This document shows positions 30,881-34,586 of a stretch of 64,000 nt of DNA, piece by piece. Made by a program: the position numbers and the translations under genes. The stretch covers positions 1 through 64,000 of IMG/VR virus record IMGVR_UViG_3300042922_000286. One strand, given 5' to 3'. The notes beneath the pieces were generated by a model, which was not told the origin of the DNA, made no database searches, and worked only from the letters and a program-made list of their open reading frames with translations. This DNA comes from a virus. Lineage: Duplodnaviria; Heunggongvirae; Uroviricota; Caudoviricetes. Every line of letters starts with the position of its first letter. Position 1 is the stretch's first letter.

Positions 30881-30895
30881 GGGCGCTTTTCTGTT
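30865..30895. terminator. Bidirectional terminator between the convergent xerD and repeat-protein genes (AAAAA-GCGCCC-TCTAG-GGGCGC-TTTT).
   Basis: 6-bp GC stem at 30870-30875 and 30881-30886, flanked by an A-run and a T-run. Confidence 0.65.
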
Positions 30896-33800
30896 ACATG
30901 ATGAACGCGTACGGTAGGTCGGTGATGATCTCGATAACACAATCCAAGTCCTTCCTATGCAAGAGACTTAACGAAGACGGCAGGTCGCTGTGAATACGAA
31001 GGGCAATGCTTGAAGGCATATCGTACTCTGACGTGCGCCGTACCCACAGCGTTGAAGACTTATCGTAATAATGCACTTGCTGTACCGTAATGCTACCCGG
31101 GATATCATCCATCAGTCGAAGTTGAATCGAAGATGGCAGGTCTTCATCCCTTACAGCTATAATCCCGACCGTGCCTGTCATCCTGTTAGTAGGGGAAACC
31201 CTGATGACGGACGGTAGGCTTTCATTCCCCCGCGCCACTGTGTACAAGGATGTCGGGATGTCGTAAGCCCCACGAACCCTCGGAATGATGATACCCGGGG
31301 TGTCTTCATTCCCACGGTACTTTACAAAGATGCTACCCTGTAGGGACTCGTACGGCCTTACAAGGATTTCGGAGTTCAAGTCATCCCTATTCAGCACGTA
31401 GATGTTCGACGGTATGTCGCTCGTCTCCGACCTGCGGACCACGATCCGCGACGGCAGCGTTACAAACTGCAACGTATTGATGGCAGACGGAAGATCAGAC
31501 CATTCGCTACGTCTTACTACGATCTGCGAGGGACGCTCGGAGATTTCGGCCCTACGTACTGTGATACTCGACGGCAGGTTGGAGAACCTGACTACATTGA
31601 TCTGCGTAGGCAGATCGGACGTGTCGCGAACCCTTACTACGACCTTACCATTCAGGTCTTTGAAGTTGCTCCGACGAACCGTGATAGTAGAAGGGAGGTC
31701 GCTATGCAGCCTCAGTTGTATTGTAGAAGGGATGCTGTCCACATCGCTGCGCCGTACTATTACCGAACCTTCCATTTCGTAGTCCCCGTAAGCAGGTACA
31801 ACGATACTACAATTCAAGTACTGCGATCTAACTAAGATGGAGCCTTGCAGATCACTCTTTATCCATACGTCCAGTTGGCCCGGGATTTCCTTACGGTAGA
31901 GGACATAAACGTTACTGTCCAGATCGTCTAAATCCGACCGCCGTACGACCAAGCTAGACTCAAGGGTGTAATGCAGCCGCGGCTGGATGGTACCCATAAG
32001 ATTAGGTCTGGAAACTACAATCCCAGCATCGATCTCATTTAACGAATCCCTACGCGCCGTGATGGAACCAGTCAGGTCTTCCCTGAACCGAACATATACA
32101 CTGGACGGTAGGTCAGGCTTCGATACAAAGATCGTGCCATCGATCTTACTCCGATCGCTGTGTCTTACGGTCACGCTGCCCGGGAGGTCAATGTACGGAG
32201 TAACATAGATTCTACCTTTAATAGTAGGATGAGAAACCCACAATCTTGAAGGCATGTTCAGTCTGTCACTTCGCCGTACTGTGATGCTGCCCGCCATATC
32301 AATATATGGCGTTACCCAAATCCTAGATTGCAACTCAGGTCTGGATACAAACAGCGTGGCAGGTATCCTGCTCTCGCTTCTTTTCCTTACCCGTATCAAG
32401 CCGCTAACGTCAACGTACGGCGTTACCCAAATGCTAGAAGGCAGGTATGGTTTAGAGACATTGACTGTACCCGGTAGTTCACCTTCTCCGTTGCGCCTAA
32501 CATCGATGCTGCCCGCCAAGTCCTCGCGGAATCGAACATAGATCGAACAGTCGATTGTCGGATTGGACACGTACAGGCTGGAAGGCATCTCCCACTCGGT
32601 CGATCTTCGAACGGCGATACTACCCGGCCAATCTTTATACGGCGTAACGTAGATACTACCCGGGCGATCTGGTGCGCTAATCGTTCCCCAAGAGAATAGC
32701 TCACTGTACCCTTCGACCCTGACCAAGAAGGAGGAAGGCATATCCGTGTACTTTTTAACAAACAAGGACGAGGGCAGGTCAGGCTTACTAACCATAATCG
32801 TATTGTTTTCAAGGTCGTTGTATCCCGGCTCACGAACAGCGATGGTGGAAGGTAAGTCATTCCATTCTTCTCTTCTTACAGTGATCGAGCCGAGCATGTC
32901 AGGGCGGCTAACTACAATCCGAGAAATGCGTTCTCCCGGCTGCACAATGAACATGCTTGAGGGCATATCATGAGTTGTCCAAAATCCCCTAACTGTCAGC
33001 TTACTGGCCAAGCTCTTGTTGCCTCGAATTACAGCCATAATCCGCGATTCAAGGTTAGCTGTGTCGAAGCTCCAAATCTGAGCATCAAAGTACTCAATAA
33101 CAATCTTAGGCTCAAGACCTGACCTACGCTCTTTCGAGAATACGAACAACGCAGGGTCTTGCTCATTCGTGGCGTTGATGTAGAAGTTAAGTACGGCCTT
33201 TCCATCCCGCCTTGCATCGTTAACGTACGTCGAGAGGTCAAAGGCGATGTACCTGTCGTCCTCATTAACTGTATAGTCTATGCCGACAAGCAAGCCCGGG
33301 CCGGGTTGGTTATCCCACGTTACCCCATTCTCGGTCCAAGAATCGTCCGTCTCCAAAAGACTCAGGCTGATCTCGGGTTTCATGTAGGCGTAGTAGAGGC
33401 GCAGTTCCGCTCTTTTCAGTTCGTAATTAAGCGGTAACTCTAGGAACCTAGAGATGTCGAACCCTGCGAGGATTCTTAGCCTTTCCTCTTTACCTGCCGA
33501 GTAGCCAGTTCCTATGATCTGCTCCCCGCCATAGTTCAGCTTAGGTAGGCCTTCGCGGATAAACGCATCTTTAATCGGCGTGTTAATGTCGGCCAAGACC
33601 GTAGGTTCAACGATATTGATGATGCCTCGCATACGATTTAGCGGAGCTACCCCGATGCTGGAAGGCATGTCGTATGGCCGCTTGGCAATAACGGACATCG
33701 GTATTTCGTTACCCTGCACACCGATAACAAACGAGTCGCCTGTCATTTTGTTTCTGAGCTTGACCCCGATGCGGGATGTCAGATCAGAAGTACCAACGGA

Positions 33801-34586
33801 CAAGACGTTAATGGAGCTTTTCAGCAAGCGTCCATATCCGTTCTCGTCATGCACGTATTCACTTCTAACCCTGATGGTGCCGGTTATTTCACTCTGCTCC
33901 CACTTACCTACCCAAATGGCGCTCACAAGGTCTGCGTTTTCCACACCGATGGTTTCGTGGACTACAGGGATAACGGTATCCAAAGGAGCTACGTGAATAA
34001 TTGCGCTAATCGTAGTAGAACGGCTCTCTGTAGTATGGATTGCGGGAGGAAGCCCTGCGACATCGACAAGAGGTCGGGTGTCGTGAGATGCCTTATAAAC
34101 GCCATCATCAGTAGAATGGGACACTGTGATAACAGTATTGGGCGTTGGTTTTGTTTCATGGGTTACCGCCCGCACACCGTCGTCAGTTGTGTGCCTAAGA
34201 TTGAGCACAGTGACAGTGTTATTTTGCGGTTCTACGCTATGCTCCACCAAGAAGTGAACAGGATCATTTAATGAATCGTGCCACGCTATCCACCCTGTCG
34301 GAGGCGTTGGTCTGGTCGTATGGCTATGCCCGCTTATTATCTGAGGTGCGTCCGTAGCGACCTCGGGCCGTGTCTGGTGAACGGCAGTAAAGCCGCTATA
34401 TACATCATGTACAGCAGGGATTGTAGTATCCAACGCAGGTGTGCGCGTTCCATGTGTAAGAGTTACCTCAGCACCCATAACTGCGTGATTCGCCTGTAGT
34501 ACTGTGTCTCCTACTTCCTTAGATTGATGAAGGGCGGTTATATTAATAACCGCCCCCACAATGTCGTTAGCCGCCATATTGTCCAC
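30894..34586 (-). CDS. Giant (1230-aa) repetitive virion-associated protein with about 60 tandem 11-residue repeats (D-L/M-P-S-S-I-x-V-R-x-x), candidate beta-solenoid.
   Basis: Periodic DLPSSI.VRR units through residues 520-1200, a second repeat class (H.T.P....T.I..VH..) near the N-terminus, and a central TWDNQPGPG domain. Other reading frames show the same 33-nt periodicity. Confidence 0.6.
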   Translation of the reverse strand: MDNMAANDIVGAVINITALHQSKEVGDTVLQANHAVMGAEVTLTHGTRTPALDTTIPAVHDVYSGFTAVHQTRPEVATDAPQIISGHSHTTRPTPPTGWIAWHDSLNDPVHFLVEHSVEPQNNTVTVLNLRHTTDDGVRAVTHETKPTPNTVITVSHSTDDGVYKASHDTRPLVDVAGLPPAIHTTESRSTTISAIIHVAPLDTVIPVVHETIGVENADLVSAIWVGKWEQSEITGTIRVRSEYVHDENGYGRLLKSSINVLSVGTSDLTSRIGVKLRNKMTGDSFVIGVQGNEIPMSVIAKRPYDMPSSIGVAPLNRMRGIINIVEPTVLADINTPIKDAFIREGLPKLNYGGEQIIGTGYSAGKEERLRILAGFDISRFLELPLNYELKRAELRLYYAYMKPEISLSLLETDDSWTENGVTWDNQPGPGLLVGIDYTVNEDDRYIAFDLSTYVNDARRDGKAVLNFYINATNEQDPALFVFSKERRSGLEPKIVIEYFDAQIWSFDTANLESRIMAVIRGNKSLASKLTVRGFWTTHDMPSSMFIVQPGERISRIVVSRPDMLGSITVRREEWNDLPSTIAVREPGYNDLENNTIMVSKPDLPSSLFVKKYTDMPSSFLVRVEGYSELFSWGTISAPDRPGSIYVTPYKDWPGSIAVRRSTEWEMPSSLYVSNPTIDCSIYVRFREDLAGSIDVRRNGEGELPGTVNVSKPYLPSSIWVTPYVDVSGLIRVRKRSESRIPATLFVSRPELQSRIWVTPYIDMAGSITVRRSDRLNMPSRLWVSHPTIKGRIYVTPYIDLPGSVTVRHSDRSKIDGTIFVSKPDLPSSVYVRFREDLTGSITARRDSLNEIDAGIVVSRPNLMGTIQPRLHYTLESSLVVRRSDLDDLDSNVYVLYRKEIPGQLDVWIKSDLQGSILVRSQYLNCSIVVPAYGDYEMEGSVIVRRSDVDSIPSTIQLRLHSDLPSTITVRRSNFKDLNGKVVVRVRDTSDLPTQINVVRFSNLPSSITVRRAEISERPSQIVVRRSEWSDLPSAINTLQFVTLPSRIVVRRSETSDIPSNIYVLNRDDLNSEILVRPYESLQGSIFVKYRGNEDTPGIIIPRVRGAYDIPTSLYTVARGNESLPSVIRVSPTNRMTGTVGIIAVRDEDLPSSIQLRLMDDIPGSITVQQVHYYDKSSTLWVRRTSEYDMPSSIALRIHSDLPSSLSLLHRKDLDCVIEIITDLPYAFIM

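What the first reader, a model, noticed from the sequence alone, without database searches (positions are those of the whole stretch)
30894..34586. Terminal 1230-aa protein built from about 60 tandem 11-residue repeats (D-L/M-P-S-S-I-x-V-R-R-x): candidate beta-solenoid, plus a second N-terminal repeat class
From about residue 520 to 1200 the protein is an almost uninterrupted array of 11-aa units (DLPSSITVRRS, DMPSSMFIVQP, DLPGSVTVRHS and so on). The DNA is periodic at 33 nt, and alternative frames repeat DGRS every 11 codons. The N-terminal 250 aa carry a different His/Thr/Pro repeat of about 18-20 aa (H.T.P....T.I..VH), and a central block contains W..NGVTWDNQPGPG. An 11-residue periodicity is unusual for phage fibres (beta-helix rungs are typically 18-25 residues). 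It could form a narrow beta-solenoid or a polyproline-like rod. It is the last gene of the late operon, directly before the bidirectional terminator.
Basis: seen in the sequence. Interest (0 to 1): 0.6.

Follow-up and report, generated by a model that had tools for sequence, protein, structure and literature searches.

The report
Repeat-built phage tail fibre protein
The last gene of this phage's tail operon encodes a 1230-residue protein made almost wholly of short strand-and-turn repeats around a sugar-binding module; it is most likely a host-binding tail fibre from an uncharacterised family, and the "11-residue" period is really 11-14-residue units grouped in threes.

The parts
30894..34586 (-). 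Whole CDS, 1230 aa from GTG 34586 to stop TAA 30894-30896. An ATG three codons in (34577) with AGGA about 10 nt upstream is the more likely start. A public (JGI) gene call starts only at residue 202.
33942..34547 (-). N-terminal His-type repeats (residues 14-215). About 16 units of the form ...phi-x-phi-x-H-x-T..., with 17 His spaced 10-17 residues apart. The same F-x-V-x-H-x-T units occur at the N-terminus of long-form homologues.
33582..33941 (-). Residues 216-335. Repeat units of the main type lie ahead of the sugar-binding domain (PSSM hits at 219, 233, 254, 268, 306). This stretch includes the family-conserved R-N-K-M-T-G / N-R-M-R-G strands.
33093..33581 (-). CBM96 / DNRLRE carbohydrate-binding domain (residues 336-498). 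It contains WTENGVTWDNQPGPG at residues 417-431 (33294-33338).
   Evidence: searches (PF24517, 64.1 bits, cut-off 26; NF033679, 67.4 bits, cut-off 34)
30897..33056 (-). Main repeat array, residues 511-1230. 56 strand-turn units of 11-14 aa (one of 15 and the terminal one of 18), with consensus D-L-P-[S/G]-S-I-x-V-R. Three successive units sum to 37-40 residues in 48 of 54 windows.
32004..32669 (-). Six exact 37-residue super-repeats (residues 640-861). Each is A (12 aa, ..SIYVTPY.), then B (14 aa, DLxGSITVRRSxxx), then C (11 aa, xhPxxhFVSRP). This is the proposed one-rung unit.
   Evidence: (family consensus with the same 12+14+11 pattern)
30897..30911 (-). C-terminal pentapeptide Y-A-F-I-M-COOH. 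The pattern [YF]-x-[FY]-I-[MLIF] ends 111 of the 154 family sequences held at that point.
30862..30895 (.). GC-rich hairpin (AAAAAGCGCCC-TCTA-GGGCGCTTTT) between the two convergent genes, with U-tracts on both strands. Likely a bidirectional intrinsic terminator. It overlaps the stop codon of the recombinase gene.
   Evidence: missed by the pattern scan

Best explanation
This is a virion tail-tip fibre or spike, a receptor-binding or adhesin protein, of a siphophage distantly related to Brevibacillus phages Jenst and SecTim467.

The chain is built almost wholly of one kind of element: a 11-14-residue 'turn + short beta-strand' unit, D-L-P-[S/G]-S-I-x-V-R. The even positions (L2, I6, V8) are aliphatic and the odd ones (S5, x7, R9) are polar or aromatic.

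Three successive, non-identical units (A 12 aa, B 14 aa, C 11-14 aa) make one 37-40-residue period. I propose that this period is one rung of a three-faced, single-chain beta-helix. That gives about 19 rungs after the CBM96 domain, and a few more before it if those units adopt the same fold.

The CBM96/DNRLRE beta-sandwich (residues 336-498) sits between two repeat stretches. It probably binds a host cell-wall glycopolymer. The helix would then present long ladders of Ser, aromatic and Arg side chains for multivalent contact. The His-type N-terminal repeats would lie on the tail-proximal side.

What is shown: the repeat anatomy, the CBM96 domain, family membership, and the conserved position at the end of the tail module. 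What is inferred: the beta-helix fold, the inward or outward orientation of the residues, the oligomeric state, the ligand, and presence in the virion.
For: Repeat anatomy:
- 56 units, with 37-40-residue three-unit sums.
- The same 12+14+11 consensus appears in a 34-row family alignment.
- Lag 37-40 is the top autocorrelation lag in 58 of 111 family members; lag 11 is top in 1 of 111.
- DNA repeats inside the gene are spaced 111, 222 or 333 nt.

Fold:
- The AlphaFold model of residues 640-899 has one 4-7-residue strand per unit, three per 37 residues.

Sugar binding:
- CBM96 scores above the curated cut-offs.
- The founding CBM96 member is a beta-sandwich that binds alginate through a Lys/Arg groove (PMC9971899).

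Tail role:
- The gene order tape measure, M23-peptidase protein, RCC1-like propeller proteins, this gene is found here.
- The same RCC1-then-this order is found in Jenst, SP-15, LIS04 and two Paenibacillus-type prophages, where a holin/endolysin cassette follows directly.
- None of the 60 family N-termini printed looks like a signal peptide by eye; no predictor was run.
Against: - Both AlphaFold runs are low confidence: mean pLDDT 39.1 with pTM 0.27, and 49.5 with pTM 0.42. True single-chain beta-helices are usually predicted confidently.
- Foldseek finds nothing significant in the PDB (best E 6.7) or in BFVD. In BFVD even the family's own members match my model only at TM about 0.15-0.19.
- No Pfam beta-helix family matches at E <= 1.
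- No virion proteomics exist for any family member in the papers I could search.
- A 37-40-residue regular rung is longer than in the characterised beta-helices I know of (own knowledge).
Confidence: 0.5

Rival explanations
1. It is a homotrimeric, intertwined fibre (a triple beta-helix or another trimer-only fold). Each 11-14-residue unit would be one face of a triangular prism. Three units (37-40 aa) would be one turn of each chain around the common axis, giving a rod about three times longer, roughly 27 nm for 19 turns at 4.8 A per strand layer.
For: - A three-unit period is also what such a fold would give.
- Monomer AlphaFold predictions stay at low confidence, and BFVD monomer models of homologues do not agree with mine. 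This is typical for chains that fold only as intertwined trimers (own knowledge).
- Phage fibres are usually trimers (own knowledge).
Against: - The three units of a period are consistently different (A ..IYVTPY, B ..ITVRRSxxx, C ..IFVSRP) in this protein and in the family consensus. That is expected if each type builds its own face of a single-chain helix, and is not required in a three-fold intertwined prism.
- The model that was obtained is a single-chain helix.
- No C-terminal intramolecular chaperone domain (Peptidase_S74) is detected. Such a domain accompanies some, not all, triple beta-helix fibres (own knowledge).
Confidence: 0.2
2. It is an enzymatically active tailspike, a polysaccharide lyase or hydrolase depolymerase. 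The beta-helix would carry the active site and CBM96 would be the substrate-targeting module.
For: - Homologues are annotated 'pectate lyase' (SP-15) and 'pectin lyase fold/virulence factor' (LIS04).
- CBM96/DNRLRE domains occur in alginate, hyaluronate and pectate lyases (PMC9971899).
Against: - No catalytic family is detected in this protein by Pfam, NCBIfam or PHROGs.
- In SP-15 gp064 the only lyase-like signal is a weak Pel9A-like hit (24.6 bits, below the 25.2 cut-off) at residues 14-111. That is an N-terminal region absent from this protein.
- The array is very regular, without the long irregular loops that usually form a catalytic groove (the link to catalysis is inference).
Confidence: 0.15
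3. It is not a virion component. It would be a phage or prophage-encoded surface or secreted protein, for example an S-layer-like or biofilm-matrix-binding factor, that merely lies next to the tail genes.
For: - DNRLRE domains were first described in archaeal and bacterial cell-surface proteins (PMC9971899; PMC2447325 listed).
- Many family members lie in bacterial genomes.
Against: - None of the printed family N-termini looks like a signal peptide by eye.
- The gene is co-oriented with the tail genes and only 30 nt downstream of the previous one.
- Its position between the tail genes and the lysis cassette is conserved in unrelated phage types.
Confidence: 0.05

Closest known systems
Single-chain right-handed beta-helix tailspikes and adhesins (pectin-lyase-like fold: P22-type tailspikes, Acinetobacter phage tailspike 6c72, Klebsiella phage Kp7 fibre 7xyc, pertactin, Fap2)
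   Same: - Three strands per coil, and an elongated all-beta rod.
- Encoded at the distal end of a phage tail module.
   Different: - No sequence match to any Pfam beta-helix family.
- The coil is a near-perfect sequence repeat of 37-40 residues made of three homologous 11-14-residue sub-repeats. Known examples have about 22-25-residue, sequence-irregular coils (own knowledge).
- A CBM96 domain interrupts the repeats.
- The fold itself is not confidently predicted.
phrog_11333 (Bacillus phage SP-15 gp064, Brevibacillus phage Jenst gp52 and SecTim467 gp52, Listeria phage LIS04 gp86, Bacillus phage G gp367)
   Same: - Direct homologues (E 1.4e-222 to the PHROG; 28-32% identity over 77-80% of the query for the closest, 24-26% over 17-67% for the others).
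- Same CBM96-plus-repeat design, same ...Y-x-F-I-M C-terminus, and the same neighbourhood with an RCC1-like protein.
   Different: - This copy has one CBM96-plus-array module and 1230 aa. Jenst gp52 has two modules (1569 aa), and the SP-15 and LIS04 proteins have 4401 and 3567 aa.
- The closest sequence is only 46% identical (P0002).
- The family has no assigned function (PHROG 'unknown function'; the phage G preprint 10.1101/2024.12.16.628780 calls gp367 hypothetical).
CBM96 / DNRLRE domain (alginate lyase Dp0100 module TM6-N4, PDB 7vbo)
   Same: Residues 336-498 match PF24517 and NF033679 above the curated cut-offs, and weakly match the 7vbo sequence (E 0.0028).
   Different: Here the module is embedded in a phage repeat protein, not attached to a recognisable lyase. 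The ligand is unknown. The alginate-binding residues (Lys10 to Arg36, Tyr159) could not be mapped, because the pairwise match covers only residues 37-126 of the chain.
Triple beta-helix and triple beta-spiral fibres (T4 gp5C and gp12, endosialidase stalk; adenovirus and reovirus shafts)
   Same: Short strand-turn sequence repeats in a phage or viral fibre, with Pro or Gly at the turn, and a possible three-unit turn.
   Different: - The repeat lengths known to me are 8 residues (gp5C) and about 15 (adenovirus shaft) (own knowledge). Here the units are 11-14 with three distinct types.
- No sequence match in the PDB with a family profile.
- Trimer state could not be tested.

Membership tests
CBM96 / DNRLRE domain | Match to the curated family models above their gathering or trusted cut-offs | tested here: met
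   PF24517: 64.1 bits against 26, residues 336-498, profile positions 6-163 of 164. NF033679: 67.4 bits against 34.
CBM96 / DNRLRE domain | Beta-sandwich fold with a Ca2+ site and a basic glycan-binding groove (PMC9971899) | tested here: inconclusive
   In AlphaFold job 1 this is the only region with pLDDT up to 60-70, and it contains strands. The model as a whole is poor. Binding residues could not be mapped.
phrog_11333 | Significant match to the PHROG profile, and homology to its phage members | tested here: met
   E 1.4e-222 in 4 stretches. tblastn hits to SP-15, Jenst, SecTim467, LIS04 and phage G.
Right-handed parallel beta-helix (pectin-lyase-like fold) | Three beta-strands per coil, repeated along the chain | tested here: met
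   Three unit types per 37-40 residues. DSSP on the model shows three strands per 37 residues. This is evidence at the level of sequence and a low-confidence model only.
Right-handed parallel beta-helix (pectin-lyase-like fold) | Three-dimensional superposition on solved members from a confident model | tested here: inconclusive
Right-handed parallel beta-helix (pectin-lyase-like fold) | Sequence match to a beta-helix or pectate-lyase Pfam family | tested here: not met
   No such family at E <= 1. No PDB sequence match with the protein or with a family profile.
Triple beta-helix fibre (T4 gp5C / gp12 / endosialidase type) | Homotrimer with intertwined chains | not testable with these tools
   Only monomer prediction was available.
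Triple beta-helix fibre (T4 gp5C / gp12 / endosialidase type) | C-terminal intramolecular chaperone (Peptidase_S74), in the subset that has one | tested here: not met
   No Pfam hit beyond CBM96. The chain ends in repeat units and YAFIM.
Adenovirus/reovirus-type triple beta-spiral | About 15-residue pseudo-repeat (own knowledge) | tested here: not met
   Units are 11, 12 or 14 residues; only one of the 56 has 15.
Phage tail fibre / receptor-binding protein (functional class) | Encoded at the distal end of the tail-morphogenesis module | tested here: met
   It is the last gene after the tape measure, M23 protein and RCC1-like proteins. The position is conserved in five other loci.
Phage tail fibre / receptor-binding protein (functional class) | Present in the virion and binds the host surface | not testable with these tools
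   No proteomics or binding data were found.

The most novel reading that the evidence does not exclude
The repeat array is a fibre fold not yet seen in any solved structure. One possibility is a wide, intertwined trimeric beta-prism with 11-14-residue faces. Another is a single-chain solenoid whose unusually long, three-fold pseudo-symmetric 37-40-residue rung arose by triplication of one strand-turn unit. Either would define a new, widespread class of adhesion rods in phages of Gram-positive bacteria that work together with RCC1-like propeller proteins.
Probability: 0.2. Interest if true: 0.6.

Novelty: new variant of a known kind. Interest (0 to 1): 0.35.

Why it matters
- Receptor-binding proteins of large Bacillales phages (Jenst-like, SP-15-like, phage G) are essentially uncharacterised.
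- This family is the conserved last tail gene in all of them, ranges from about 540 to over 4400 residues, and has no Pfam model and no solved relative.
- A structure would show how a simple strand-turn unit, repeated 16 to more than 80 times, builds rods of adjustable length around CBM96 sugar-binding modules.
- It would also give a handle on host range, and a modular scaffold for engineering.
- For annotation: 'pectate lyase' on the SP-15 homologue is not justified by the repeat part, and one public gene call for this protein appears to lack 201 N-terminal residues.

Tried and rejected
- **+ strand reading.** Reading the finding on the + strand gives a frame full of stops; the gene is on the minus strand.
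- **Tandem Repeats Finder** on the DNA found nothing relevant.
- **Pattern scan for terminators** missed the hairpin between the convergent genes. It was found by eye and by folding.
- **AlphaFold job 1.** Residues 202-1230 with a 5-row alignment gave pLDDT 39 and was not usable.
- **AlphaFold job 2.** Residues 640-899 with a 34-row alignment of family fragments gave pLDDT 49.5, usable for topology only.
- **Fold searches.** Foldseek against BFVD and the PDB gave no significant match. The afdb50 library was unavailable.
- **PDB sequence searches** with the protein and with the family profile returned only the CBM96 relatives.
- **Profile search of the 5.8-billion protein set** with the repeat alignment gave only 4 hits, because word pre-filtering is swamped by the repeats.
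- **Megablast** of 20 kb of the window against phage genomes found no match.
- **Contig look-ups** for P0001 and P0069 found nothing on record.
- **Literature.** No functional or proteomic data exist for any homologue.
- **Readings rejected.** An 11-residue narrow solenoid (the units are not constant and the period is 37-40). A polyproline rod (Pro 6-7%, strand-rich). A YadA-like 14-residue beta-roll (large Arg, Tyr and Trp residues in place of the small residues that such a tight roll needs; own knowledge, not tested).
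Full report
**1. What is there**

The 1230-codon ORF at 30894-34586 lies on the minus strand. The + strand reading is full of stops.

- The start is either GTG at 34586 or, more likely, ATG at 34577, which has AGGA about 10 nt upstream. The previous gene ends only 30 nt upstream.
- A public gene call (P0001, 1029 aa, 100% identical) starts at residue 202. 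That call is probably too short. There is no stop in between, a 600-nt gap would be left, and long-form homologues carry the same kind of N-terminal repeats.

**2. The repeats**

Residues 511-1230 divide into 56 units with consensus D-L-P-[S/G]-S-I-x-V-R.

- Position counts among the 56 units: D 30, L 30, P 29, S 28 or G 20, S 25, I 35, V 41, R 27.
- Unit lengths are 14 (24 units), 12 (21), 11 (9), 15 (1) and 18 (1), mean 12.9. The '11-residue' length is not.
- The strongest autocorrelation lag is 37 residues (identity 0.19), then 26, 14, 12 and 40.
- Three successive units sum to 37-40 residues in 48 of 54 windows.
- Residues 640-861 are six exact 37-residue super-repeats of three different unit types: A (12 aa..SIYVTPY.), B (14 aa, DLxGSITVRRSxxx) and C (11 aa..hFVSRP).
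- After residue 950 the triplets are mostly 12+14+14 = 40.
- A 34-row alignment of fragments from other family members gives the same 12+14+11 consensus.
- In the last 300 residues of 111 family proteins, the top lag is 37-40 in 58 and 11 in only one.

At the DNA level there is no tandem repeat.

- The 33-nt lag is at background (0.268 against 0.256 +/- 0.021).
- The top lags are 111, 78, 42, 120 and 36 nt.
- The only direct repeats are 60-84% identical and spaced 111, 222 or 333 nt.
- The array is therefore old and diverged, not a recent expansion.
- 'DGRS every 11 codons' is not present.

**3. The other parts**

- Residues 336-498 are a CBM96/DNRLRE domain (PF24517, 64.1 bits against a cut-off of 26; NF033679, 67.4 against 34).
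- Units of the main type also lie before this domain, with PSSM hits at 219, 233, 254, 268 and 306. The sugar-binding module therefore interrupts the repeats.
- Residues 14-215 carry 17 His spaced 10-17 residues apart, each closing a phi-x-phi-x-H-x-T strand-like motif. 18 of the 26 His lie in the first 262 residues.
- This second repeat class is real and recurs in homologues P0002, P0004, P0007, P0009 and P0011. Its period is about 13 residues, not 18-20.
- The chain ends in Y-A-F-I-M. The pattern [YF]-x-[FY]-I-[MLIF]-COOH ends 111 of the 154 family sequences held at that point.

**4. Family and context**

- The protein matches phrog_11333 (unknown function) at E 1.4e-222.
- An exhaustive HMMER search with residues 501-1230 finds 283 clusters at 50% identity (47 below 1e-30) among 1.84 billion representatives.
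- The phage hits are Brevibacillus phages Jenst, SecTim467 and Sundance, Bacillus phages SP-15, G and EZ-2018a, and Listeria, Psychrobacillus and Lysinibacillus phages.
- Named bacterial members are from Paenibacillus.
- Sizes run from about 540 aa (one CBM96 and 16-23 units) to 4448 aa. Unit counts are 49-83 in the long forms checked.
- Pfam and NCBIfam have no model for the repeats.
- The PDB has no sequence relative, even with a family profile.

The window's phage is a distant relative of Jenst, with 58.6% identity in a virion structural protein and no nucleotide match.

The gene closes a minus-strand tail module. In order, this module holds:
- a tape measure (1530 aa);
- a 1024-aa protein with an M23 peptidase domain;
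- several virion structural proteins;
- a Gly-rich protein (697 aa);
- an RCC1-like propeller protein (774 aa);
- a 426-aa protein;
- this gene.

The same order, RCC1-like protein, sometimes a roughly 407-aa protein, then this gene, is seen elsewhere:
- in Jenst, followed by a convergent XerD as in the window;
- in SP-15 and LIS04;
- in two prophage-like loci, where a holin and an endolysin follow directly.

The phage G preprint also notes that phrog_11333 co-localises with phrog_16766, and gives no function. Jenst and SecTim467 are siphoviruses, and no virion proteomics are reported for them.

Between this gene and the convergent recombinase gene lies a hairpin, AAAAAGCGCCC-TCTA-GGGCGCTTTT, with U-tracts on both strands. 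Its free energy is -19.7 and -17.2 kcal/mol, with z-scores of -4.1 and -3.3.

**5. Fold**

- AlphaFold on residues 202-1230 with five sequences gave mean pLDDT 39.
- A second run on residues 640-899, with 34 aligned family fragments, gave pLDDT 49.5 and pTM 0.42. It has one 4-7-residue strand per unit, covering x-S-I-x-V-(R-R), and three strands per 37 residues.
- Foldseek finds nothing significant in the PDB or in BFVD. In BFVD the family's own members align to my model only at TM about 0.15-0.19.
- So the topology the network prefers is a three-faced beta-helix with one super-repeat per rung, but the prediction is not reliable.

In favour of a single-chain helix:
- the three unit types are consistently different, as expected if each builds its own face.

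Against it:
- confidence is low;
- a 37-40-residue regular rung is unusually long.

An intertwined trimer would also produce a three-unit period. It would explain the poor monomer predictions, and I could not test it.

**6. Mechanism proposed (inference)**

- In each unit the even positions (L2, S/G4, I6, V8) are aliphatic or small. The odd positions (S5, x7, R9) are polar. Position x7 is Tyr or Trp in all six A units and aromatic in four of the six C units of the regular block.
- If the aliphatic side faces the core, the rod shows continuous Ser-aromatic-Arg ladders. A surface of that kind suits sugars or anionic wall polymers.
- Together with the CBM96 module, this points to reversible, multivalent binding of a cell-wall glycopolymer by a tail-tip fibre. 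The founding CBM96 member binds alginate through a basic groove (PMC9971899).
- The N-terminal His-type repeats would be on the tail side.
- Enzymatic depolymerase activity is possible but has no sequence support here. In SP-15 the only lyase-like signal is a sub-threshold Pel9A-like hit in an N-terminal region absent from this protein.

**7. Verdict**

The array, the second repeat class, the central block and the operon position are all real. The 11-residue and 33-nt periodicity and the alternative-frame claim are wrong.
- The supposed anomaly, a rung of 11 residues, dissolves into 11-14-residue sub-repeats grouped in threes.
- What remains is a sizeable, uncharacterised family of repeat-built, CBM96-bearing tail proteins of Bacillales phages. 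No structure is solved or confidently predicted.
- I file it as a new variant of a known kind (beta-helical phage fibre or adhesin), of moderate interest. There is a minority chance that the fold is new.

Noticed in passing
window 30897-30911 (residues 1226-1230); family proteins P0002-P0154: The very C-terminus is conserved across the family: [YF]-x-[FY]-I-[MLIF]-COOH in 111 of the 154 family sequences held at that point (YAFIM 24, YVFIM 16, YCFIM 10, and others). A strictly terminal aromatic/aliphatic pentapeptide suggests a capping strand or a docking or assembly signal.
   Followed up: partly
window 33982-34586 (residues 1-201): The public (JGI) gene call for this protein (P0001) starts at a TTG equal to residue 202 and so omits the His-type repeat region. 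Homologues and the 30-nt gap to the upstream gene argue for the long form.
   Followed up: partly
window 34617-35897, 35949-38273, 38287-40380 (all minus strand): The three genes upstream share a C-terminal module. The 774-aa RCC1-like propeller protein and the 697-aa Gly_rich_2 protein are 30% identical over about 480 C-terminal residues. The last 130 residues of the 426-aa protein are weakly similar (E 2e-6). This looks like a set of paralogous tail-tip proteins with swapped N-terminal heads.
   Followed up: partly
window 30041-30880 (+): A XerC/D-like tyrosine recombinase (Phage_integrase plus SAM-like N-domain) is convergent with the tail operon, as in Brevibacillus phage Jenst. This is notable in a phage of about 125 kb whose relatives were isolated as lytic siphoviruses.
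   Followed up: no
window 54240-57314 (-): A 1024-aa protein with an M23 peptidase domain (residues 99-213) lies shortly downstream of the 1530-aa tape measure. It is probably the tail-associated lysin or tail-tip protein.
   Followed up: no
window 48103-49932, 49960-51432, 51443-53452 (-): Three consecutive paralogous 'virion structural protein' genes (phrog_11431 and phrog_9258) of 609, 490 and 669 aa. The first is 58.6% identical to the 'major virion structural protein' of Jenst and distantly related to ORF129 of Bacillus phage 0305phi8-36.
   Followed up: no
L002 (SP-15 gp064) and L005 (LIS04_86): The annotations 'pectate lyase' and 'pectin lyase fold/virulence factor' on the 4401-aa and 3567-aa homologues are not supported for the repeat part. 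In SP-15 only a sub-threshold Pel9A-like hit at residues 14-111 was found.
   Followed up: partly
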